Shown: piece after piece, positions 16,001 through 61,989 of the stretch
Layout of the letters: each line of letters starts with the position of its first letter
Numbering within the stretch: the stretch's first letter is position 1
Source of the DNA: Mobula hypostoma
Lineage: Eukaryota
Direction of reading: 5' to 3'
Assembly: GCF_963921235.1 (NCBI RefSeq)
Contig: NC_086097.1
Span: 159,714,001-159,778,000, forward strand
Length of the DNA: 64,000 nt
Translations under genes and position numbers: made by a program
Notes under the pieces: generated by a model
Databases searched by the model: none
Seen by the model: the letters and a program-made list of their open reading frames with translations, nothing else
What the model was told of the DNA's origin: nothing

Positions 16001-16521
16001 AGACTCCTATATTCTATAAGAGGGCAGATACTACAGATAGTCTCTGTAATGGAGGAAGGAGTGAATTCAGTTGACTGATAAATTGCATTTTTCATGATTA
16101 GTAGATCCTTTGGAATATCACACTTTATTAACCTCTCACTATTTAAATAGAATTCTTCTTCATTTTTCATACAAAAGTGCGGTATATCCTCCCTTTATAC
16201 TCAAGCATTCTGTATGCTAAGTTTCCATTTTGGGTTACCCTATCACTCTCTGCCAGGAACGATAACCAGACCAAACTAATTTATCTTTTTTTCCCTATAA
16301 TTCAACTATTTCATTACAATAATTACATTCATATGTTGTGATTCAGTTTTAAACTTCGATTATTATACCCTGATGTGGTCTTACTCCAGTTTGCTTTAGG
16401 ATTCGTTTCCGAGCCTCTCCAGCTCTTGGCTCCATCCCTCCCCCTCCTGTCTGCTCCTATCATTTTGGATCTCCCCCTCCCCCTCCAACTTTCAAATCTC
16501 TTACTCACTCTTCCTTCAGTT

Positions 16522-16557
16522 AGTCCTGACGAAGGGTCTCGGCCTGAAACGTTGACT
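16522..16557 (+). ncRNA. Minimal type-I hammerhead ribozyme, copy 1 (GUU triplet, predicted cleavage after 16553)
   Basis: AGTC CTGACGA AGGGTCTCGGCCT GAAA CG TT GACT: stem I agtc/gact, core CUGANGA and GAAA, stem II, palindromic AACGTT at stem III. Confidence 0.85.
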
Positions 16558-17005
16558 GCACCTCTTCCTAGGGATGCTGCCTGGCCTGCTGCGTTCACCA
16601 GCAACTTTGATGTGTGTTGCTTGAATTTCCAGCATCTGCAGAATTCCTGTTGTTTGCGTTTTTAAATTCACTATTGCGAAGCCTCTTCCGGTGATGCCTA
16701 CACTGAAGAAGTTTAAATCTTCTCTTTGACGGAGTTCAGTGAAACCATCTCTCACTGCTCCCCATCTGTAATTTCTTCGGCTCTTCAACTTTTCGACCAC
16801 ATTTTGACTCAGACTCGCTATTACAGCCATATATCCTTTCTTGGAACGTGCCTCCATCGCCAACTTACTCCAGTTGGCTTTAGGATTCATTTCCGAGCCT
16901 CTCCAGCTCTTGGCTCCATCCCTCCCCCTCCTGCCTTCTCCTATCATTTTGGCTCTCCCCCTCCCCCTCCAACTTTCAAATCTCTTACTCACTCTTCCTT
17001 CAGTT

Positions 17006-17041
17006 AGTCCTGACGAAGGGTCTTGGCCTGAAACGTCGACT
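17006..17041 (+). ncRNA. Minimal type-I hammerhead ribozyme, copy 2 (GUC triplet, predicted cleavage after 17037)
   Basis: AGTC CTGACGA AGGGTCTTGGCCT GAAA CG TC GACT. Confidence 0.87.
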
Positions 17042-17428
17042 GCACCTCTTCCTAGAGATGCTGCCTGGCCTGCTGCGTTCACCAGCAACTTTGATGTGTG
17101 TTGCTTGAATTTCCAGCATCTGCAGAATTCCTGTTGTTTGGTCTTAATTGTTGGTGGCTTTTACCTAGTATGAATTTGGATCTGATAAAACCTTTACCTT
17201 TACCTGTGCTTTCCCTCCCTAATATTTGTTGAGGCCCTATCCCTGATCCTTGTTATTTTATTTACATGTACACATATCCCAGCCAAAGCTGAAGTGAATA
17301 TACCTTCTTTCTTTAGTACAAGCGCCATATTCTATGAATTAAAACTCATACGACAGGTCACATAGTTAAGCCTCCAATCTGTCAGTGATAATACTAATTT
17401 ATGCATTACCCAATTAATGGGAGAAGGA

Positions 17429-20029: not shown

Positions 20030-21333
20030 GTTGTCATGTACACAAACTCAAGCTGTTGCCATGGGCACAAGCATGGGCTCCAGATATGCCTGCCTTTTCA
20101 TTGGCTAAGTAGAAGAGTCCATGTTACAAACCTTTCCTGATAATTCTCGCCAACTCTTTCTGTGCTACACTGACTGACAGCATTGGTGCTGCTTCATGCG
20201 CCCATAATGAGCTTCTCACTTTCATCAACTTTGCCTCCATTTTCCACCCTCCCCTTAAATTCACTTAGTCCATTTATGACACCTCTCCCTCCTTTCACGA
20301 TCTCTCTATTTCCATCTCTGGAGACAAACTGTCTAGCGACATCTTTTAGAAACCTACCGATTCCCATGACTTTCTAGACTATACCTCTTCCCACCCTGTC
20401 TCCTGTGAAAATATTATTCCCTTTTCTCAGTTTCTTCATCTCTGTGGCATCCATTCACAGGATGAGGCTTTCCTTGTCAGGACATCACAGATAACTTCCT
20501 TCTTCAAATAACAAGGTTCCCCTTGTTCCGCCATTGATGCTGCCCTCACCCGCATCTCCTCCATTTCCTAGAGATCTGCACTCACCCCACCTTCCTGCCG
20601 CCTTAACAGGTATAGGGTTCCTCTTGTGCTCACCTACCATCCCTTGAGACCCCGCATCTAACACGTTATTCTCCGCAGTTTTTGCCACCTTCAATTGGAT
20701 CTTGCCACCAAACAACTTTACCTGCCCCCGCTTTCCACTTTCTGTAGGGCTAGCTCCCTCCGTGATTTCCTTGTTCATTTGTTCCTCCTCACTAATCTCC
20801 CTCATGGCAGGTATCCCTGCGAGTGACCAAAAGCTACATCTGCCCACTACCTCCTCCCTCACCTCCAGTCAGGGCCCCAAATAGTCCTTCCATGTGAGGC
20901 AACACTTCACCTGCTAATCTGTTGGGATCATCTACTGTATCTGGTGCACCCGATGCCTCCACTACATTGGTGAAACCAGACATAAATTGGAGGACCGCTT
21001 TGCTGAGAACCTCTGCTCCATCTGCCAAAAGAGGAAATTCCCAGTGGCCAATCATTTTAATTCCTATCCCCATCCCTATTTCAACATGTCGGTCCATGGC
21101 CTCCTCTTTTGCCACAGTGAGGCTGGAGGAGCAACAGCTTATATTCCATGTAGGTAGCCTCCAACCTAATGGCACAATATTGATTTCTTCCCCCTTCCTT
21201 TCCAGTCCTGACAAAGGACCTCAGCCTGAAATGTTGATTGTTTATTCAACAGCTGCTGCCTTACCAGCTGAGTTCCTCTGGCATTTTGTGTGTGTTGCTC
21301 TGGATTTCCAACATCTGCAGAATCTCTTGTGTT
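20030..21333 (+). pseudogene. Decayed Penelope-like element (RT + GIY-YIG remnants, hammerhead tail)
   Basis: gccatgggcacaagcatggg (AMGT.MG), RVPLVLTYHP-like and RLEEQQLIFHVGSLQPNG segments homologous to ORF 39021-40322; degenerate HHR at 21204-21239. Confidence 0.85.
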
Positions 21334-23445
21334 TATCATGTACCCATCTATAATAATTTCATTTATTAACACATAGTCTGTAGTTTTCTCTGGTAATTCA
21401 CATGCTTGCTTAGATACTTAAACATTATGAGAGTTTAATGGCCCTTCATCATATCATTCTTAGTGCTGATGAAGGGTCTTTGACCTGAAACATCAACTGT
21501 TTTTGCATAGTTGCCCCCTGAACTGTTGAGTGTTTCCATCATTTTCACTTTGATTCTCCAATGCCCTTACAATAAAGGCTGGAACTGGAATCCATTAATT
21601 TTCCTAATTACCTGATGCACTTGCATACTAACTTTTTTGGGTTCAGTGCACTTGGACCCTCATATCCCTTTCTATACTGCATTTTACTGCCGAACTCCAC
21701 TATATATATTAAAAAAAAACACTTGCTTCTTCATTCTTCCTTCCAAAATGGAGAACTTCACTCCCCTCCCCCTATTTTACTTAATCTGCCAAATTCTTCC
21801 CACTTACATAACCCACCGATAACACTTTGTAACCCTGCCCCCCCCGCCACTAGTTGCTAACCTACTTTTGTATCAATTGCAAATTTAGCTACAGAACAGT
21901 CTGTGCCTTCATTCAAGACATCAGTAAAGTTTGTGAATGGTTTCCCTCCAGGTTCTGATGGCCAATTTATCCTAAGTATCAATTCTATGAATTTGCTGCT
22001 CCCCTCGCCATGTCATTATGGGGGAGGAGGGAAACACAAGGGAATACTTTTGATCAAAACTGGGAGAAAAGGATGACACAAGTACTGTTGGTGCTACTGA
22101 GGAAAGCTGCTAAAAGGTGATTAAGAGACAAATAAGGCTGCTTAAGTGAATTTCGGTCAACACTTTATAAACCCTCAATCTGTTCTCCTGACTTCCCATT
22201 CCTGATGTCCACAATCAATTCCGTGACCTTCCTGAATTTGAGTATGACTTTGTCATTGTGACATCACTCAAGTGGCTGCCCATCTCATTTCTGAGAATCT
22301 CCTCATTGCCCTCGGTGATATTACCAAAAACAGAGTATCATCTGCAAATTTATAGATGCCATTATAGTCTGCATCAAAACTGGCCATGTTTATAAATATT
22401 CTAGAGAACACAGCATAAAAATTGGTACGTGCATAAGTAACTAATATAGAAGCTGAATTATTACAAAAATATTTTATGAATATTTATGCGAGAATTGCAA
22501 TAGGCTTTCATAAAGTCATCCTCGTTTGAATTAGGGAGGTTGGTAAGAAATAATTATAGTTTCATTAAAGGTTACATTCAGACAGGTTTGAATTTTTGAG
22601 GTGTTCAGCATGAGGTGAGTTTGTAAGTAGAGTACATTAATATTAATTCAAGTGTTTTCCTTTCATCCCACTGAAATAGCAGTAACTCAATGTTGGCTGC
22701 AAGGGAGAGCAAGATTATTGATAGTAATTTAATAATTTCTGTGCTAAACTATGCATGTGAAAAAATACAGAAGTTGTCAGTGAAGAAAACACCAATAGTC
22801 TTTCCTTCATTATCAAAATTCTGACCTAATGAGATGTTTCTATGTTATTCAAGTTTCGGAATGGTTTGTAGCTTCAAACGATCAGTTTCTGATTCAGAAG
22901 TAGATGATCCAAGAATTATTTTAAAGTAATTCTGGAGGAAAAAAATGTCACATGAATGTGCCTCTACACTGATTGCAGTCTGTCACTGATTATAATGGTC
23001 ATCATGCAGAAATAAAAGTGCTTGAAATAATCTGCATTCCAGGCAGCATCTATGGTTAATATTCAGTGACGCCATCACTAGACACATTTTCCCTTTTTCT
23101 TTACTTTTGGAACATTGAAGGGTTACTATTTGTACATCACTCTTCTTCTCTCTTTCCCCATTGCATCATCCCATACAACTCAGAAGACAGAGCTTCTGAT
23201 CTTTAACTTTTCACTATTCGACTAATTCGATGATTCACATCTGCCTCTTCCAATCAGGGCTTATGTTATAGTCTCTTCTACACCAGAGGAATAAAATAGA
23301 CTGGTGACTGCTTTCTGGAACACCTCCACTCACGCTGCAAGAGTGACCCTGAGCCTTCTCATGCCTGTCACTTTAACTCCTCATCCCTGCTCCCCATGAC
23401 ATTTTTTTTAAATCTTTGGTCACTTATACTGCTCCAATGAAAGCA

Positions 23446-25517
23446 TGACCCTAAATCAAGGAAGGTAGTGCACCCGTGGCTGACAAGAGAAATTAGGGAT
23501 AGTATCAATTCCAAAGAAGTAGCATACAAATTAGCCAGAGAAAGTGGCTCACCTGAGGACTGGGAGAAATTCAGAGTTCAGCAGAGGAGGACAAAGGGCT
23601 TAATTAGGAAGGGGAAAAAAGATTATGAGAGAAAACTGGCAGAGAACATAAAAACGGACTGTAAAAGCTTTTATAGATATGTAAAAAGGAAAAGACTGAT
23701 AAAGACAAATGTAGGTCCCCTGCAGACAGAAACAGGTGAATTGATTATGGGGAGCAAGGACATGGCAGACCAATTGAATAATTACTTTGGTTCTGTCTTC
23801 ACTAAGGAGGACATAAATAATCTTCCAGAAATAGTAAGGGACAGAGGGTCCAGTGAGATGGAGGAACTGAGTGAAATACATGTTAGTAGGGAAGTGGTGT
23901 TAGGTAAATTGAAGGGATTGAAGGCAGATAAATCCCCAGGGCCAGATGGTCTGCATCCCAGAGTGCTTAAGGAAGTAGCCCAAGAAATAGTGGATGCATT
24001 AGTGGTAATTTTTCAAAACTCGTTAGATTCTGGACTAGTTCCTGAGGATTGGAGGGTGGCTAATGTAACCCCACTTTTTAAAAAAGGAGGGAGAGAGAAA
24101 CCGGGGAATTATAGGCCGGTTAGCCTAACGTCGGTGGTGGGGAAACTGCTGGAGTCAGTTATCAAGGATGTGATAACAGCACATTTGGAAAGCGGTGAAA
24201 TGATCGGACAAAGTCAGCATGGATTTGTGAAAGGAAAATCATGTCTGACGAATCTCATAGAATTTTTTGAGGATGTAACTAGTAGAGTGGATAGGGGAGA
24301 ACCAGTGGATGTGGTATATTTGGATTTTCAAAAGGCTTTTGACAAGGTCCCACACAGGAGATTAGTGTGCAAACTTAAAGCACACGGTATTGGGGGTAAG
24401 GTATTGGTGTGGGTGGAGAATTGGTTAGCAGACAGGAAGCAAAGAGTGGGAATAAACGGGACCTTTTCAGAATGGCAGGCGGTGACTAGTGGGGTACCGC
24501 AAGGCTCAGTGCTGGGACCCCAGTTGTTTACAATATATATTAATGACTTGGATGAGGGAATTAAATGCAGCATCTCCAAGTTTGCGGATGACACAAAGCT
24601 GGGTGGCAGTGTTAGCAGTGAGGAGGATGCTAAGAGGATGCAGGGTGACTTGGATAGGTTGGGTGAGTGGGCAAACTCATGGCAGATGCAATTTAATGTG
24701 GATAAATGTGAAGTTATCCACTTTGGTGGCAAAAATAGGAAAACAGATTATTATCTGAATGGTGGCCGATTAGGAAAAGGGGAGGTGCAACGAGACCTGG
24801 GTGTCATTATACACCAGTCATTGAAAGTGGGCATGCAGGTACAGCAGGCGGTGAAAAAGGCGAACGGTATGCTGGCATTTATAGCGAGAGGATTCGAGTA
24901 CAGGAGCAGGGAGGTACTACTGCAGTTGTACAAGGCCTTGGTGAGACCACACCTGGAGTATTGTGTGCAGTTTTTGTCCCCTAATCTGAGGAAAGACATC
25001 CTTGCCATAGAGGGAGTACAAAGAAGGTTCACCAGATTGATTCCTGGGATGGCAGGTCTTTCATATGAAGAAAGACTGGATGAACTGGGCTTGTACTCGT
25101 TGGAATTTAGAAGATTGAGGGGGGATCTGATTGAAACGTATAAGATCCTAAAGGGATTGGACAGGCTAGATGCGGGAAGATTGTTCCCGATGTTGGGGAG
25201 GTCCAGAACGAGGGGTCACAGTTTGAGGATAGAGGGGAAGCCTTTTAGGACCGAGATTAGGAAAAACTTCTTCACACAGAGAGTGGTGAATCTGTGGAAT
25301 TCTCTGCCACAGCAAACTGTTGAGGCCGGTTCATTGGCTGTGTTTAAGAGGAAGTTAGATATGGCCCTTGTGGCTACAGGGGTCAGGGGGTATGGAGGGA
25401 AGGCTGGGGCAGGGTTCTGAGTTGGATGATCAGCCATGATCATAATAAATGGCGGTGCAGGCTCGAAGGGCCGAATGGCCTACTCCTGCACCTATTTTCT
25501 ATGTTTCTATGTTTCTA
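23446..25517 (+). mobile_element. Young 5'-truncated CR1 LINE
   Basis: Uninterrupted ORF2 frame, short 3' UTR, (tttctatg)n tail at about 25495-25517. Confidence 0.95.
23468..25420 (+). CDS. CR1 ORF2 reverse transcriptase, 650 aa open frame (APE domain and true start missing)
   Basis: KSPGPDGLHP, NYRPVSLTS, YLDFQKAFDKV, SGVPQGSVLGP, KFADDTKL, RPHLEYCVQF, FFTQRVVNLWNSLP. Confidence 0.93.
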   Translation: MHPWLTREIRDSINSKEVAYKLARESGSPEDWEKFRVQQRRTKGLIRKGKKDYERKLAENIKTDCKSFYRYVKRKRLIKTNVGPLQTETGELIMGSKDMADQLNNYFGSVFTKEDINNLPEIVRDRGSSEMEELSEIHVSREVVLGKLKGLKADKSPGPDGLHPRVLKEVAQEIVDALVVIFQNSLDSGLVPEDWRVANVTPLFKKGGREKPGNYRPVSLTSVVGKLLESVIKDVITAHLESGEMIGQSQHGFVKGKSCLTNLIEFFEDVTSRVDRGEPVDVVYLDFQKAFDKVPHRRLVCKLKAHGIGGKVLVWVENWLADRKQRVGINGTFSEWQAVTSGVPQGSVLGPQLFTIYINDLDEGIKCSISKFADDTKLGGSVSSEEDAKRMQGDLDRLGEWANSWQMQFNVDKCEVIHFGGKNRKTDYYLNGGRLGKGEVQRDLGVIIHQSLKVGMQVQQAVKKANGMLAFIARGFEYRSREVLLQLYKALVRPHLEYCVQFLSPNLRKDILAIEGVQRRFTRLIPGMAGLSYEERLDELGLYSLEFRRLRGDLIETYKILKGLDRLDAGRLFPMLGRSRTRGHSLRIEGKPFRTEIRKNFFTQRVVNLWNSLPQQTVEAGSLAVFKRKLDMALVATGVRGYGGKAGAGF

Positions 25518-36905: not shown

Positions 36906-38687
36906 CTTTTGCTGATATGCTAACATGCAAGTCAGGCACGAGGACCACAATGTTGGACCGAGGACACTTGGGAGTCCCTAGTTGTAGAACATTATAACTT
37001 GGGGTTGTAGGATACTATAAATTCTAAACATTCTTTTATGCCCTACATTAAGGGCTGGTGAGCTCACAAGCTGATCATTAAAAACAGCTCCCGTTGCACA
37101 ATTAAAGTCAGATTTTTGTTCACTTCCCTTTATATCAGCTGTTGCTTCCCTACTGTTGGTTTATAGTTAGTTACAAGCATTGAGTTAATATAACTTGCTC
37201 ACTGGTAAATATAGATAGGTACATGATGGTCAGCATAGACACTTTTGGAAAGGTAGTATGTCATCTCCCCTTTCAAGATTTCATATATCGGAGGAAGTTA
37301 AACTAACTTTGGTATCCTGCTGCAATTATTCCATCTGTTAGAGCTATTTTTAATACCATTATTTTCTTGCTTTTCTATTATAATTTAACTAAGCCTTATC
37401 CTGCAGATGTGACATCTGCTTGCCCATTTTTATGTTGATGTACTCTCAAAATTTTGATCAAGTCAGGCCAAGGGACTAATCTTTACATTTCATATTTTCT
37501 ATTTCATTTCAGATAATTCCTCACCAACTGTGCCCTCTTTATAAAAGCCACCTGTGAAGGCCTTCTATGTTAAATAGAAAAAAAACCATAAAATCTGGCA
37601 AATAAGCTCTGGAAATTTATAACTCTCCTGGCACCAAGACTATGTGTGTGCATATGTTTTGATTAAGTGTATTGGTTAACACAAGGGATAGGAAAGATAT
37701 GCAAGTTGTGGTTAAATATCAACATGACTATCAAGGACTATCTAAGTAAGTATACTATGGGGGTCAGAACAATGCAAACATTATACCTGAGAGAAATGCA
37801 GAATTGCAAATGCTTTTATTGTCGCACTCAAATGATTTTTCTCTCCTCCCAAGTATGGAGAGCCATTGGAACTCCCAGAGCAATTCATACCCTGAGCATA
37901 TTGTTTGTTGCAAATTAAGTTGCATCAAAGTCTCGTTAGAAAGGGAAGCTCCATAAAAGCCTTGCAATGTAGCCCTCTAGATTCCAGAGTCTAGAAAATA
38001 ATGAAATGTCCTCTAATAGAAAGGCAGATGAACATGAGTATAAAGCCAAAACTACAATTATATTTTCCAGACAACACTGAAAATCCCAGCACACCTTTAA
38101 AGGCCAGTGCAGCCAACCATCCTGTGATTATGTTATGTAAGCCAACTGCCTGGGAAGGATCTGTGAAACTGAGCATCGTGCCAATCTGTGAGGCATCAAA
38201 AGGATATTATGGTTTGTGCACATGAGTAGTAAATCCTTCAAATATATTGAAGCTTTTGCTCATTCAAAATGAAGTGTGAAAGAGGGTCAAGTAGCTCATT
38301 TCCAAAAGAACACATTCAGTGTATCGATGAAAAACAAATCAAAAACTGCAGATGCTGAAAACCTGAAACAAAATTTTGCATGGAGGAGGTTTAAAGGAGT
38401 GAAAGGCAAAGGCAGAACTAAAGGATCTGGAGAATATATAAAAATTCAAAGACTCAGAGGGTGTAAATTAGAATGCAGGTATAAAGGGAAGCATGGGCTG
38501 GTTCTGGGGCTGCAAAAAATATGTAAGTAAGCACGTAGATTCTGAATATATTGTGGCAAATGATGGAAAACCAATGAAATATGATCAGGAAACAACAGGA
38601 ATTCTGCAGATGCTGGAAATTCAAGCAACATACATCAAAGTTGCTGGTGAACGCAGCAGGCCAAGCAGCATCTATAGGAAGAGGTGC

Positions 38688-38723
38688 AGTCGACGTTTCA
38701 GGCCGAGACCCTTCTTCAGGACT
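38688..38723 (-). ncRNA. Minimal type-I hammerhead ribozyme in the Penelope-like 3' terminus
   Basis: Minus strand AGTC CTGAAGA AGGGTCTCGGCCT GAAA CG TC GACT. Confidence 0.85.
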
Positions 38724-39020
38724 AACTGAAGGAAGAGTGAGTAAGGGATTTGAAAGTTGGAGGGGGAGGGGGAGATCCAAAATGATAGGAGAAGACAGGA
38801 GAGGGAGGGATAGAGCCGAGAGCTGGACAGGTGATAGGCAAAAGGGGATACGAGAGGATCATGGGACAGGAGGTCCAGGAAGAAAGACAAGGGGCGGGGG
38901 TTGACCCAGAGGATGGGCAAGAGGTATATTCAGAGGGACAGAGGGAGAAAAAGGAGAGTGAGAGAAAGAATGTGTGCATAAAAATGAGTAACAGATGGGG
39001 TACGAGGGGGAGGTGGGGCC

Positions 39021-40322
39021 TTAGCGGAAGTTAGAGAAGTCGATTTTCATGCCATCAGGTTGGAGGCTACCCAGACGGAATATAAGGTGTTGTTCCTCCA
39101 ACCTGAGTGTGGCTTCATCTCCACAGTACAGGAGGCCGTGGACAGACATGTCAGAATGGGAATGGGATGTGGAATTAAAATGTGTGGCCACTGGGAGATC
39201 CTGCTTTCTCTGGCGGACAGAGCGTAGATGTTCAGCAAAGCGGTCTCCCAGTCTGCGTCGGGTCTCACCAATATATAAAAGGCCACATCGGGAGCACCGG
39301 ACGCAGTATATCACCCCAGTCGACTCACAGGTGAAGTGATGCCTCACCTGGAAGGACTGTTTGGGGCCCTGAATGGTGGTAAGGGAGGAAGTGTAAGGGC
39401 AAGTGTAGCACTTGTTCCGCTTACACGGATAAGTGCCAGGAGGGAGATCAGTGGGGAGGGATGGGGGGGACAAATGGACAAGGGAGTTGTGTAGGGAGCG
39501 ATCCCTGCGGAATGCAGAGAGTGGGGGGGAGGGAAAGATGTGCTTAGTGGTGGGATCCCGTTGGAGGTGGCGGAAGTTACGGAGAATAATATGTTGGACC
39601 TGGAGGCTGGTGGGGTGGTAGGTGAGGACCAGGGGAACCCTATTCCTAGTGGGGTGGTGGGAGGATGGAGTGAGAGCAGATGTACGTGAAATGGGGGAGA
39701 TGCGTTTAAGAGCAGAGTTGATAGTGGAGGAAGGGAAGCCCCTTTCTTTAAAAAAGGAAGACATCTCCCTCGTCCTAGAATGAAAAGCCTCATCCTGAGA
39801 GCAGATGCGGCAGAGACGGAGGAATTGCGATGAGTGGATGGCGTTTTTGCAAGAGACAGGGTGAGAAGAGGAATAGTCCAGATAGCTGTGAGAGTCAGTA
39901 GGCTTATAGTAGACATCAGTGGATAAGCTGTCTCCAGAGACAGAGACAGAAAGACCTAGAAAGGGGAGGGAGGTGTCGGAAATGGACCAGGTAAACTTGA
40001 GGGCAGGGTGAAAATTGGAGGCAAAGTTAATAAAGTCAACGAGTTCTGTATGCGTGCAGGAAGCAGCGCCAATGCAGTCGTCGATGTAGCGAAGGAAAAG
40101 TGGGGGACAGATACCAGAATAGGCACGGAACATAGATTGTTCCACAAACCCAACAAAAAGGCAGGCATAGCTAGGACCCATACGGGTGCCCATAGCTACA
40201 CCCTTAGTATGGAGGAAATGGGAGGAGCCAAAGGAGAAATTATTAAGAGTAAGGACTAATTTCGCTAGACGGAGCAGAATGGTGGTAGAGGGGAACTGAT
40301 TAGGTCTGGAATCCAAAAACAA
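39021..40322 (-). CDS. Penelope-like RT (C-terminal part) + GIY-YIG endonuclease, 433 aa open frame, 5'-truncated
   Basis: GVAMGTRMGPSYA, FLRYIDDC, VYYKPTDSH, C..NKC.TC linker, GVIYCVRCSRCGLLYIGETRRRLGDRFAEHL, HFN, RLEEQHLI; frame extends upstream to PHQEGLKAL. Confidence 0.93.
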   Translation of the reverse strand: MFLDSRPNQFPSTTILLRLAKLVLTLNNFSFGSSHFLHTKGVAMGTRMGPSYACLFVGFVEQSMFRAYSGICPPLFLRYIDDCIGAASCTHTELVDFINFASNFHPALKFTWSISDTSLPFLGLSVSVSGDSLSTDVYYKPTDSHSYLDYSSSHPVSCKNAIHSSQFLRLCRICSQDEAFHSRTREMSSFFKERGFPSSTINSALKRISPISRTSALTPSSHHPTRNRVPLVLTYHPTSLQVQHIILRNFRHLQRDPTTKHIFPSPPLSAFRRDRSLHNSLVHLSPPSLPTDLPPGTYPCKRNKCYTCPYTSSLTTIQGPKQSFQVRHHFTCESTGVIYCVRCSRCGLLYIGETRRRLGDRFAEHLRSVRQRKQDLPVATHFNSTSHSHSDMSVHGLLYCGDEATLRLEEQHLIFRLGSLQPDGMKIDFSNFR

Positions 40323-40393
40323 GCGTAGAGCTTTGAGACCTTCCTGATGGGGGACTTTGTTTCACCATATCCAGGAAAGATGCACGCTGAATG

Positions 40394-54493: not shown

Positions 54494-54669
54494 ATCATAA
54501 ACAGGATAAATTCTGCAGATGCTGTAAATCTAAAGCAACACACACAAAATGCTGGAGGAACTCAGCAGGTCAGTAGCATCTATGGAACTGAATAAACAGT
54601 TGATGTTTCAGGCCAGGGCCATTCTTCAGGACTGGAAATAAAGGGAGAAGAGGCCAGAATGACAAGGAG
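54494..54669 (-). mobile_element. Penelope-like hammerhead tail inserted near the Gypsy gag/protease boundary
   Basis: ctgcagatgctg...gctggaggaactcagcagg; minus-strand agtcCTGAAGAatggccctggcctGAAAcatcaact at 54598-54633. Confidence 0.8.
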
Positions 54670-60231: not shown

Positions 60232-60240
60232 TATATCAAT

Positions 60241-60384
60241 CTTCCTTCAGTTAGTCCTGACGAAGGGTCTCGGCCTGAAACGTCGACTGCACCTCTTCCT
60301 ATAGATGCTGCCTGGCCTGCTGCGTTCACCAGCAACTTTGATGTGTGTTGCTTGAATTTCCAGCATCTGCAGATTTCCTGTTGT
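60241..60384 (+). mobile_element. 144-bp Penelope-like 3' terminus insertion (hammerhead + tail)
   Basis: Near-identical to 16994-17137; perfect 14-bp TSD tagtgtatatcaat (60227-60240, 60385-60398). Confidence 0.93.
60253..60288 (+). ncRNA. Minimal type-I hammerhead ribozyme (GUC triplet)
   Basis: AGTC CTGACGA AGGGTCTCGGCCT GAAA CG TC GACT. Confidence 0.87.
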
Positions 60385-61989
60385 TAGTGTATATCAATTT
60401 GGTTTGGTATTTCAAGACGTTGAGAATTTTCAGTAACAAGCAAAAAGCAATTAGATTGACCAAACATTTTCCTTTGTGGTTGACTCGGAGATTAAGCCTG
60501 GGGCATTTTGCTTTGTATGGGTCAATACCATATTGTGTGGAGCACATACTCATTAAGCAAAAGGGTATTCTTGAAATTTTCATTGAACTTCATGTTCTGC
60601 CTTCCCTTCACCTATCATTTTTCTAAGATAATCATGCTTAGGCTTGTCTGCGTTGTTGCCAATAAGTGAATATATTACTCTCTGTAAAAGCTGGACAGGC
60701 TTTCTAAAATCTTGTGGTGTTCCTGATTAAAATGTAAAGTCAGATGACACTTATAATATGTTTTTCCTCCCATCAGCCTTCCGCGATTAATTGTATGAAA
60801 AGGCAAAAAATTATGTTTTGACAGGCATGCAAGTGGATTACATCCAGTGATCCATGTAAAAGCCTTCTGGCAAAGTGAGTAGGTGTTGGACTGAAGTGAA
60901 GGTCCAAACTGTTTTCCTCTGAGGCATTTTGCTTTCAGAGTAAAGCAGCTGAGCACCAGGAATCCCATATCAATGAATTATATAGCAGGAAAGATGTGCT
61001 CTCTGTGCCAGCAATGAAATGGTCCTGTCTGCATACCCACTTGTATCTCCAACTGACCTCTCAAAGGAAAATTACGGGTTTTATATTTTTATCCACTCCT
61101 AAAAAGTGTGGTTCTCTGGCAAGGTCTGTATTCAATACACACTGTCAAGGGACTGAACAGTTCAAGAACGGGGATGGTAAAACAAAAAGCCAGGAAACTT
61201 TATGCAGGAAGAAAGAACTTAATGAAGATAGGCCATTCAGCCTATTGTAGGTGGGGGCATCTTGGTCAAAAATCTATTCAAATTAGCTCAGTTAATTCAG
61301 CTTCTAACATCATTTTGTGTAGTATTTATTCTGTTACTCAAAATAATCTCCTGAAGTTCTCTAATATCTGCTTCCTCCCATGATTCACAGACAAAGGAAC
61401 CTTTAATAAACATTAGTGTAGATATACTGTAATTTTAAGGACAAATTGCAGAGAATGGTATGACTTTGAAACATTTATGTACATGATGCTACAATGAATT
61501 AAGAGTTAGTACTCTGTATTTTCAATAAAGGATGGCCAGTTGCTTGCTTTACTTTTGTGTGTCCTTACATGAACAAGTACAAAACGTCTGAAGATACTGC
61601 TTTGGTAATGGGAATAGGGTGTCACATTTGGAGGGAGTAGTGAACCTGTTGTGAAGAAAATAATGAAGTGAGATGAAGCCGGCAGGCATTGGATATGGCA
61701 GATATGTCAATGAGCGCAAAAGATATAAGGGAATTCAACCAGTGCCTTGCATGTAGAATGAGTGGAAATATTCTTGAGAAGAAATTATGTTGTTGAGGGC
61801 CTGGGGGATTACACTAAAGAAAAATGCAGCACTGTTTTTGATTATCAGAACGAGACTTTGAGTGTACCAATGCATCAAACTGGAGATGAGATAGGATATG
61901 ACTTTTTCAAGAACTACAAGTTTTGGTACGTGCATTCAGAGATCAGATAAAATGGTTGGGGTATCGTGCTCAGACAGAAGACAAAAAAT

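What the first reader, a model, noticed from the sequence alone, without database searches (positions are those of the whole stretch)
16381..17138. Retrozyme-like non-autonomous Penelope derivative: 484-nt unit bounded by tandem hammerhead ribozymes
Seen: two hammerheads exactly 484 nt apart (predicted cleavage after 16553 and 17037) inside a single TSD-flanked insertion (tggtctta). The unit joins the Penelope 3' terminus (from tccagctc at 16418/16902; matches 38590-38828 minus) to about 245 nt of other sequence, and the fusion junction occurs twice. Known: Penelope-like elements carry minimal hammerheads, and retrozymes are small hammerhead-flanked non-autonomous elements that give circular RNAs. 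Inference: double self-cleavage would release a 484-nt monomer that could circularise. The 1.57-mer is what reverse transcription around a circle, or template re-entry, by the autonomous RT would leave. I cannot tell from the sequence whether this family is already catalogued.
Basis: partly seen in the sequence, partly recalled or inferred. Interest (0 to 1): 0.88.

Follow-up and report, generated by a model that had tools for sequence, protein, structure and literature searches.

The report
Re-copied Penelope fragment with twin hammerheads
This is a single old insertion in which a Penelope jumping gene's copying enzyme seems to have gone round the same short scrap of its own RNA more than once; it is not a spreading ribozyme family, but the genome holds many such one-off repeats, which may show how retrozymes are born.

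Summary
The sequence facts hold: two minimal hammerheads 484 nt apart, one 8-bp target-site duplication, one junction present twice. Two parts of the reading do not. The "other sequence" is the 5' start of the parent Penelope ORF, so the unit is a 3.5-kb element lacking 86% of its middle. The junction occurs only at this locus in 3.48 Gb, so there is no family and no parent copy.

The locus belongs to a wider class. I parsed 79 other-or-same short insertions (units about 260-670 nt), mostly with private junctions. In 20 the same junction recurs within one insertion; in 4 the second arm runs on undeleted. One doubled insertion has no hammerhead at all. Best reading (0.6): the Penelope reverse transcriptase starts internally on a short RNA spanning the pLTR/ORF boundary, jumps from its 5' end back to its 3' end, and re-copies it. 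Hammerhead cutting is not needed. Some sister loci are 2-4-mer arrays that fit a published retrozyme definition; this one does not. Cleavage and circular RNA are untested. The scan earlier noted a 278-nt unit of this kind elsewhere in this genome.

The parts
16376..16383 (.). Left target-site duplication; last 4 nt double as microhomology with the element (5' attachment)
16380..16419 (+). About 38 nt of the Penelope ORF 5' region, ending in junction 1 (last, truncated pass)
16418..16656 (+). Upstream pLTR arm: 3' UTR, hammerhead and tail
   Evidence: 95% to 38590-38831 minus
16520..16559 (+). Minimal type I hammerhead 1; predicted cut after 16553; triplet now GUU by a CpG change
16657..16903 (+). 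First ~247 nt of the autonomous element after the pLTR, with the broken N-terminal ORF piece (candidate ATG 16694, three stops in 69 codons)
16902..16903 (+). Junction 2: 2-nt microhomology joining the ORF start to the 3' UTR; about 3,030 nt of the 3,516-nt monomer absent
   Evidence: monomer length from two copies 3,516 apart on C2
16902..17140 (+). Downstream pLTR arm (first pass), ending at the long-tail end of the family
17004..17043 (+). Minimal type I hammerhead 2; predicted cut after 17037; GUC intact
17139..17146 (.). Right target-site duplication
38590..40361 (-). Separate 5'-truncated copy of the parent family (RT C-terminal part, CX4CxxC linker, GIY-YIG-type domain, pLTR with hammerhead); used as natural reference
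60236..60386 (+). Separate 150-nt 3'-end copy of the family with intact hammerhead and its own TSD

Best explanation
One retrotransposition event made the whole 1.57-mer. The template was a short RNA covering about 240 nt upstream and 245 nt downstream of the pLTR/ORF boundary. The autonomous element's RT, primed by nicked target DNA, started internally at the tail site, copied upstream through an uncut hammerhead to the RNA's 5' end, jumped by 2-nt microhomology to its 3' end, copied the whole 484 nt, made the same jump again, and stopped 38 nt later by pairing 4 nt with the target. Shown: anatomy, private junction, same haplotype in both copies, TSD, recurrence of the pattern genome-wide. 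From the literature: internal start at two tail sites, priming on both strands, no need for hammerhead cleavage (PMC11167929, another PLE clade, in vitro). Inferred: the short RNA, its fixed ends and the repeated jump. A covalently closed version of the same fragment cannot be told apart at this locus; I lean to linear. The copy has since decayed neutrally.
For: (1) Junction private: 2 matches, both here. Three further multi-junction loci tested genome-wide are also private: trimer L161 3 of 3 matches at one locus, tetramer L168 4 of 4, L177 2 of 2. (2) Both copies identical at 14 of 14 subfamily sites; 1 of 115 other copies has that haplotype. The 8 differences split 4 and 4 and no private change is shared. 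(3) Of 79 short-unit insertions, 20 carry the same junction in two or more arms (17 automatic; L102, L114, L131 by eye), 4 have a second arm that runs on undeleted, 55 are uninformative. (4) Units are short-biased: 17, 32, 10, 11, 7, 1 insertions in six 31-nt bins from 272 to 672 nt, against 2.7 to 24.5 expected for uniform deletions (chi2 186). All ORF-side breaks lie within 110-286 nt of the boundary. (5) L177 is TSD-flanked, has its junction twice and no hammerhead. (6) 3' ends are bimodal about 35 nt apart; in L082, L093 and L101 the inverted arm has the long tail and the direct arm the short one, so both are separate RT starts. (7) Arms that stop at the junction point: L081, L088, L125, L164 within 2 nt, L166 and L175. 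(8) TSD of 8 nt or more in 53 of 87 insertions against 4 of 300 swapped-flank controls.
Against: No RNA intermediate was observed. In L086, L101 and L131 (partly L093, L103) the arms share a junction but differ in subfamily haplotype (5-9 of 12-13 sites agree), so one template alone cannot explain them. In L099 and L106 the jump lands about 175-180 nt into the ORF of a long copy, so the landing site is not always an RNA 3' end. Some junctions are shared by 2-3 loci (20 of 79 under a loose match), so parent-daughter copying or repeated use does occur. The stop-at-junction count is post hoc and weak once the hot spot near the hammerhead is removed. The bins need two exact 17-mers and cover only part of the length range. 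One assembly only: a parent could be lost or unassembled.
Confidence: 0.6

Rival explanations
1. A deleted parent copy existed first. Its transcript (linear, or the hammerhead-cut 484-nt circle the first reader proposed) was mobilised in trans, and the parent was later lost or is missing from the assembly.
For: Explains identical junctions directly. Shared junctions exist: 2 loci and 3 loci; the two C18 copies also share private substitutions. Circle-templated, more-than-unit copying is proposed for PLEs (PMC4209133, Discussion) and retrozymes (PMC7229834, Discussion).
Against: No parent for 4 of 4 multi-junction loci tested as private. A 20 to 4 ratio would make most short units daughters, yet no junction was seen at more than 3 loci. 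L177 cannot come from a hammerhead circle. Units joining just after the cut site do so 4-14 nt downstream, none exactly at it (5 of 12 hits).
Confidence: 0.24
2. The jump happened once; the second arm picked up the junction by switching onto the first cDNA or its second strand, or by later gene conversion, rather than by re-reading the RNA.
For: Haplotype-mosaic arms in L086, L101, L131. In tetramer L168 one variant is shared by units 1-2 and the other by units 3-4, which points to some DNA-level copying.
Against: At this locus the arms are in direct orientation and identical in haplotype; a cDNA cannot template a same-strand repeat without a second-strand step that is not described.
Confidence: 0.1
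3. Post-insertion DNA events: an ordinary deletion, then unequal crossover between pLTRs, then a second deletion ending exactly at the TSD.
For: Microhomology deletions of PLEs are known (PMC3846280, passages); unequal crossover is the route proposed for retrozyme arrays (bioRxiv 10.64898/2026.07.22.740005, Discussion). The 4-nt overlap with the left TSD could also mark a deletion.
Against: Needs three events with the TSD intact; predicts shared private mutations (0 seen against 8 unshared); cannot make inverted arms with the same junction and a different tail or the short-length bias.
Confidence: 0.06

Closest known systems
Endonuclease-bearing Penelope-like elements, partial tandems with pLTR, tail and minimal hammerhead (PMC8557442 passages; PMC4209133 parts 1-2 of 4; PMC11167929 parts 1-2 of 4)
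   Same: Truncated upstream copy plus downstream copy, 3' end at one of two tail sites, TSD, minimal dimer-type hammerhead in each pLTR; parent has the CX4CxxC linker that PMC8557442 gives for Neptune/Nematis.
   Different: The repeated unit is 484 nt rather than 3.5 kb, and it carries a private junction twice. I found no description of this in the passages read.
Metazoan non-LTR retrozymes (PMC7229834 part 2 of 6, passages, Discussion; bioRxiv 10.64898/2026.07.22.740005 parts 1-3 of 5)
   Same: Short non-coding unit with a type I hammerhead per unit, PLE origin, TSD longer than 4 bp. The preprint already proposes PLE origin and reports chondrichthyan families averaging 363 bp, near the fullest bin here (352-382 nt).
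   Different: Single locus, 1.57 units, minimal rather than canonical hammerhead, weakly structured monomer, no expression data. The unit includes the ORF start and appears to arise during reverse transcription, whereas the preprint suggests local amplification of the terminal sequence by unequal crossover.
R2 SIDEs, short internally deleted elements (PMC3414825, abstract only)
   Same: Ribozyme-bearing 5' and 3' parts of an autonomous retroelement joined, no ORF; template jumps seen in vivo.
   Different: SIDEs are propagating families at a fixed rDNA site with an HDV-type ribozyme; here many independent junctions, few shared.
Repeat synthesis by template jumping: DRT2 and telomerase (PMC12039810, passages)
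   Same: An RT holding one RNA and re-copying a bounded part of it into tandem cDNA.
   Different: Those are programmed, fixed templates; here the ends vary and the process is inferred only. Analogy, not membership.

Membership tests
Metazoan non-LTR retrozyme | Type I hammerhead motif in each unit | tested here: met
   Own minimal descriptor, two hits, 0 in 50 shuffles; Rfam models do not match
Metazoan non-LTR retrozyme | Canonical hammerhead with stable helix III and loop contacts (PMC7229834) | tested here: not met
   Minimal PLE type: no helix III, ACGU palindrome; predicted folds do not give the hammerhead
Metazoan non-LTR retrozyme | Tandem array called by TRF with at least two hammerhead units (preprint's definition) | tested here: not met
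   No TRF call here, also with settings close to the preprint's; 7 of 9 sister loci tested are called
Metazoan non-LTR retrozyme | Multi-copy dispersed family | tested here: not met
   Junction at one locus only
Metazoan non-LTR retrozyme | No protein coded; TSD longer than 4 bp | tested here: met
   Broken ORF piece; 8-bp TSD
Metazoan non-LTR retrozyme | Highly self-paired monomer | tested here: inconclusive
   z = -1.86, 6 of 100 shuffles fold as well
Metazoan non-LTR retrozyme | Self-cleavage; abundant linear and circular monomer RNA | not testable with these tools
   Needs in vitro transcription and RNA data
EN+ Penelope-like element insertion (partial tandem) | pLTR with minimal hammerhead, 5'-truncated upstream copy, tail end, TSD | tested here: met
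EN+ Penelope-like element insertion (partial tandem) | ORF with RT and C-terminal GIY-YIG | tested here: not met
   Absent from this copy; present in the family (look-alike clusters carry RVT_1 and GIY-YIG in part of their members; Pfam scan itself gave no hit)
Neptune/Nematis-type PLE (parent family) | CX2-5CxxC linker before the GIY-YIG motif; clade placement by RT tree | tested here: inconclusive
   Linker CX4CxxC seen in ORF 39021-40361 (motif); no tree built
SIDE-like non-autonomous derivative | Joined 5' and 3' parts propagated as copies in trans | tested here: not met
   Joined parts yes; propagation of this junction no; seen for other junctions at 2-3 loci

The most novel reading that the evidence does not exclude
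The Penelope RT has a telomerase-like ability to re-copy a short RNA held around its internal start site. This one process would explain how pLTR partial tandems regenerate and would create, in single insertion events, hundreds of independent hammerhead tandems of retrozyme size. This genome would then be a retrozyme nursery: dimers to tetramers with private junctions (L152, L157, L161, L168), a few already copied to new sites, with this locus a stalled 1.57-mer.
Probability: 0.4. Interest if true: 0.75.

Novelty: new variant of a known kind. Interest (0 to 1): 0.5.

Why it matters
How PLEs regenerate their pLTR tandems was called unexplained (PMC2377424, Discussion passage), and the step from PLE to animal retrozyme is argued from co-occurrence and trees only (2026 preprint). 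Private junctions act as barcodes of single template molecules. They let one ask from genome data whether arms come from one template and whether the hammerhead is needed, and they give a direct bench test with the published in vitro PLE system. The locus itself is probably a dead, neutral insertion; its value is as an example of the class.

Tried and rejected
Family hypothesis: rejected. The nearest look-alike junctions (L035, L080) differ by 3 and 5 nt, and L035 is of another subfamily haplotype. A special 484-nt size: rejected, neighbouring bins hold similar numbers. Splicing or back-splicing: junction ends are not GT-AG. Rfam: no hammerhead match at either threshold. Pfam: no hit for the parent ORF or the antisense ORF 16516-17160; the antisense ORF was set aside. 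Thermodynamic folding does not give the hammerhead as monomer or dimer, which says little for such motifs. Expression: no RNA holder listed. Two runs guessed to be RNA were laid as contigs; they had no cover on the unique flanks and no listed piece across the junction; neither result is evidence either way. Empty site: not found, the second organism carries the insertion. Excess of junctions exactly at the hammerhead cut: not seen. Symmetry of the two breakpoints around the start site: considered, dropped because fixing unit length produces it. Literature searches gave no paper describing repeated private junctions in PLE insertions; the library lacks most subscription papers, PMC5785218 was not held, and the preprint's supplements, which list its chondrichthyan families, were not seen and may include units like these.

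Full report
Observation. The region holds a 277-nt direct repeat, 16380-16656 and 16864-17140, 484 nt apart, with 8 differences. A minimal-hammerhead descriptor of my own finds cores at 16526 and 17010 with predicted cuts after 16553 and 17037, two more hits elsewhere in the window and none in 50 shuffles. Rfam has no match. An 8-nt duplication flanks the whole. The upstream hammerhead's cut triplet is GUU; 193 of 212 descriptor hits in the fetched loci (overlapping loci included) read GUC. That GUU cleaves less well is recalled knowledge, not tested.

What the 'other sequence' is. A search of the own genome with 16657-16900 gave 1996 candidates, 40 scored, 30 fetched. In 29 of 29 other loci the pLTR 3' end lies directly upstream. 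None has this junction; 28 continue into the ORF, which in long copies reaches RT motifs, and one has a different deletion. Two copies 3,516 nt apart on C2 give the monomer length. So the unit is the last 239 nt plus the first 245 nt of an ordinary PLE. The family is huge: 32,886 exact copies of the hammerhead 36-mer, but only 880 of a 23-mer from the ORF start. The parent ORF in the window has a CX4CxxC linker before its GIY-YIG-type motif, the Neptune/Nematis mark in PMC8557442 (passages); no tree was built. Earlier scan notes call the host a ray; I did not check this.

Is it a family? The junction 27-mer with up to 1 mismatch occurs twice in 3.48 Gb, both here. The junction-spanning DNA search scored 40 of 1849 candidates and found related but different junctions. 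The two copies agree at 14 of 14 subfamily sites, a haplotype found in 1 of 115 other copies, against 56% mean agreement between loci. Each copy has 4 private changes and they share none, so the duplication is as old as the insertion. A DNA run of a second organism from another study has a contig over 15900-16443 with 12 differences; it bridges the left boundary and runs 25 letters past the upstream junction, and another reaches 21 letters into the right end, both short of the tool's 31-letter rule. The insertion is thus shared and old.

The wider class. Gapped patterns (ORF-start 17-mer, gap, pre-hammerhead 17-mer, both exact) gave 21, 34, 11, 12, 8 and 1 hits for unit lengths 272-302, 352-382, 441-471, 472-502, 503-533 and 642-672. 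Of these 87 hits 86 were fetched; merging hits of one insertion left 79, this locus included. Counts per bin (17, 32, 10, 11, 7, 1 after removing L088 and L102, whose true units are shorter) are far from uniform deletions of a 3.5-kb element (chi2 186). Interpolating over unsampled lengths suggests very roughly 150-300 such insertions; this is an estimate, not a count. In 20 of 79 the same junction recurs within the insertion (17 automatic; L102, L114, L131 by eye), in 4 the second arm runs on undeleted (L104, L118, L132, L139), and 55 are uninformative. Of the 17, 15 had no partner among the 79. Genome-wide tests confirm privacy for L161, L168 and L177. Two junctions already seen as shared occur at 2 and 3 loci. 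TSDs of 8 nt or more flank 53 of 87 insertions tested, against 4 of 300 controls. TRF of 9 sister loci as tandem arrays (1.9-4.4 copies) but not this locus.

Mechanism. PMC11167929 (parts 1-2 of 4 read) shows for a Poseidon element in vitro that RT starts internally at two sites marking the tail, needs RNA downstream of them, primes on both target strands and does not need hammerhead cleavage. The 79 insertions end at two positions about 35 nt apart, matching this. An RT that starts in the middle of a short RNA must jump to copy the downstream part; doing so twice gives exactly this locus. Three observations favour this over a hammerhead-released circle from a parent: no parent is found; L177 repeats its junction with no hammerhead between its TSDs; and several arms stop right at the junction point, as at a physical RNA end (L081, L088, L125, L164; L166, L175), though that count is post hoc. 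In L082, L093 and L101 the inverted arm carries tail sequence absent from the direct arm, so it is a second RT start, not a fold-back.

Against this reading. Arms of L086, L101 and L131 share a junction but not a haplotype. L099 and L106 re-enter a long template. L168 shows paired variants suggesting DNA-level copying. Some junctions are shared between loci. A circularised fragment cannot be excluded here. All of this rests on one assembly and on exact-match sampling, with no RNA intermediate seen.

Comparison and novelty. It works like a PLE partial tandem in miniature and resembles a retrozyme in layout. It fails three retrozyme membership tests (multi-copy family, TRF array, canonical hammerhead). 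PLE origin of animal retrozymes is in print (bioRxiv 10.64898/2026.07.22.740005, parts 1-3 of 5 read), as is circle-templated tandem formation as a proposal (PMC4209133; PMC7229834) and non-autonomous multicopy PLE derivatives in Chlamydomonas (PMC8557442). Six searches found no account of repeated private junctions or of units built from pLTR plus ORF start. An earlier scan note read a 278-nt unit in this genome as a rare by-product; I agree that it is a by-product, but such units look common among copies that retain the ORF start. Verdict: new variant of a known kind, interest 0.5; the value lies in the class and the testable mechanism, not in this decayed copy.

Noticed in passing
L168, G000:C12:195.329 Mb: TSD-flanked array of 4.4 units of 233 nt, four hammerhead cores plus an inverted arm, private junction: the best retrozyme-like candidate seen.
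   Followed up: partly
L161 (C75), L152 (C22), L157 (C50), L115 (C5), L122 (C12), L102 (C2): Dimers and a trimer of 262-359-nt units with their own junctions.
   Followed up: partly
C50:7.32 and 8.15 Mb; C18:110.35 and 111.72 Mb; C5:188.9 and 196.2 Mb: Several loci that share a junction lie on one contig within 1-8 Mb and appear to have different flanks; may be local hopping or one RNP inserting twice. Other shared pairs are on different contigs.
   Followed up: no
L086, L101, L131: Two arms share a private junction but belong to different subfamily haplotypes.
   Followed up: partly
L166, L172, L175, L176, L177, L026: Units whose 3' part starts 4-14 nt after the predicted hammerhead cut; possibly copied from cleaved RNA.
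   Followed up: partly
L099, L106: Long copies with an upstream re-entry about 175-180 nt into the ORF.
   Followed up: no
window 21204-21334, 21460-21499 (+), 54500-54648 (-): Older, diverged PLE 3' ends with hammerhead-like remains (74-85% identity).
   Followed up: no
window 23441-25420 (+): Open 659-codon frame of a LINE-type reverse transcriptase; CR1-like by recalled motifs, not tested.
   Followed up: no
L154, L155 (C22:125.13 and 125.27 Mb): Same insertion with the same TSD twice: a segmental duplicate, not a second insertion.
   Followed up: no
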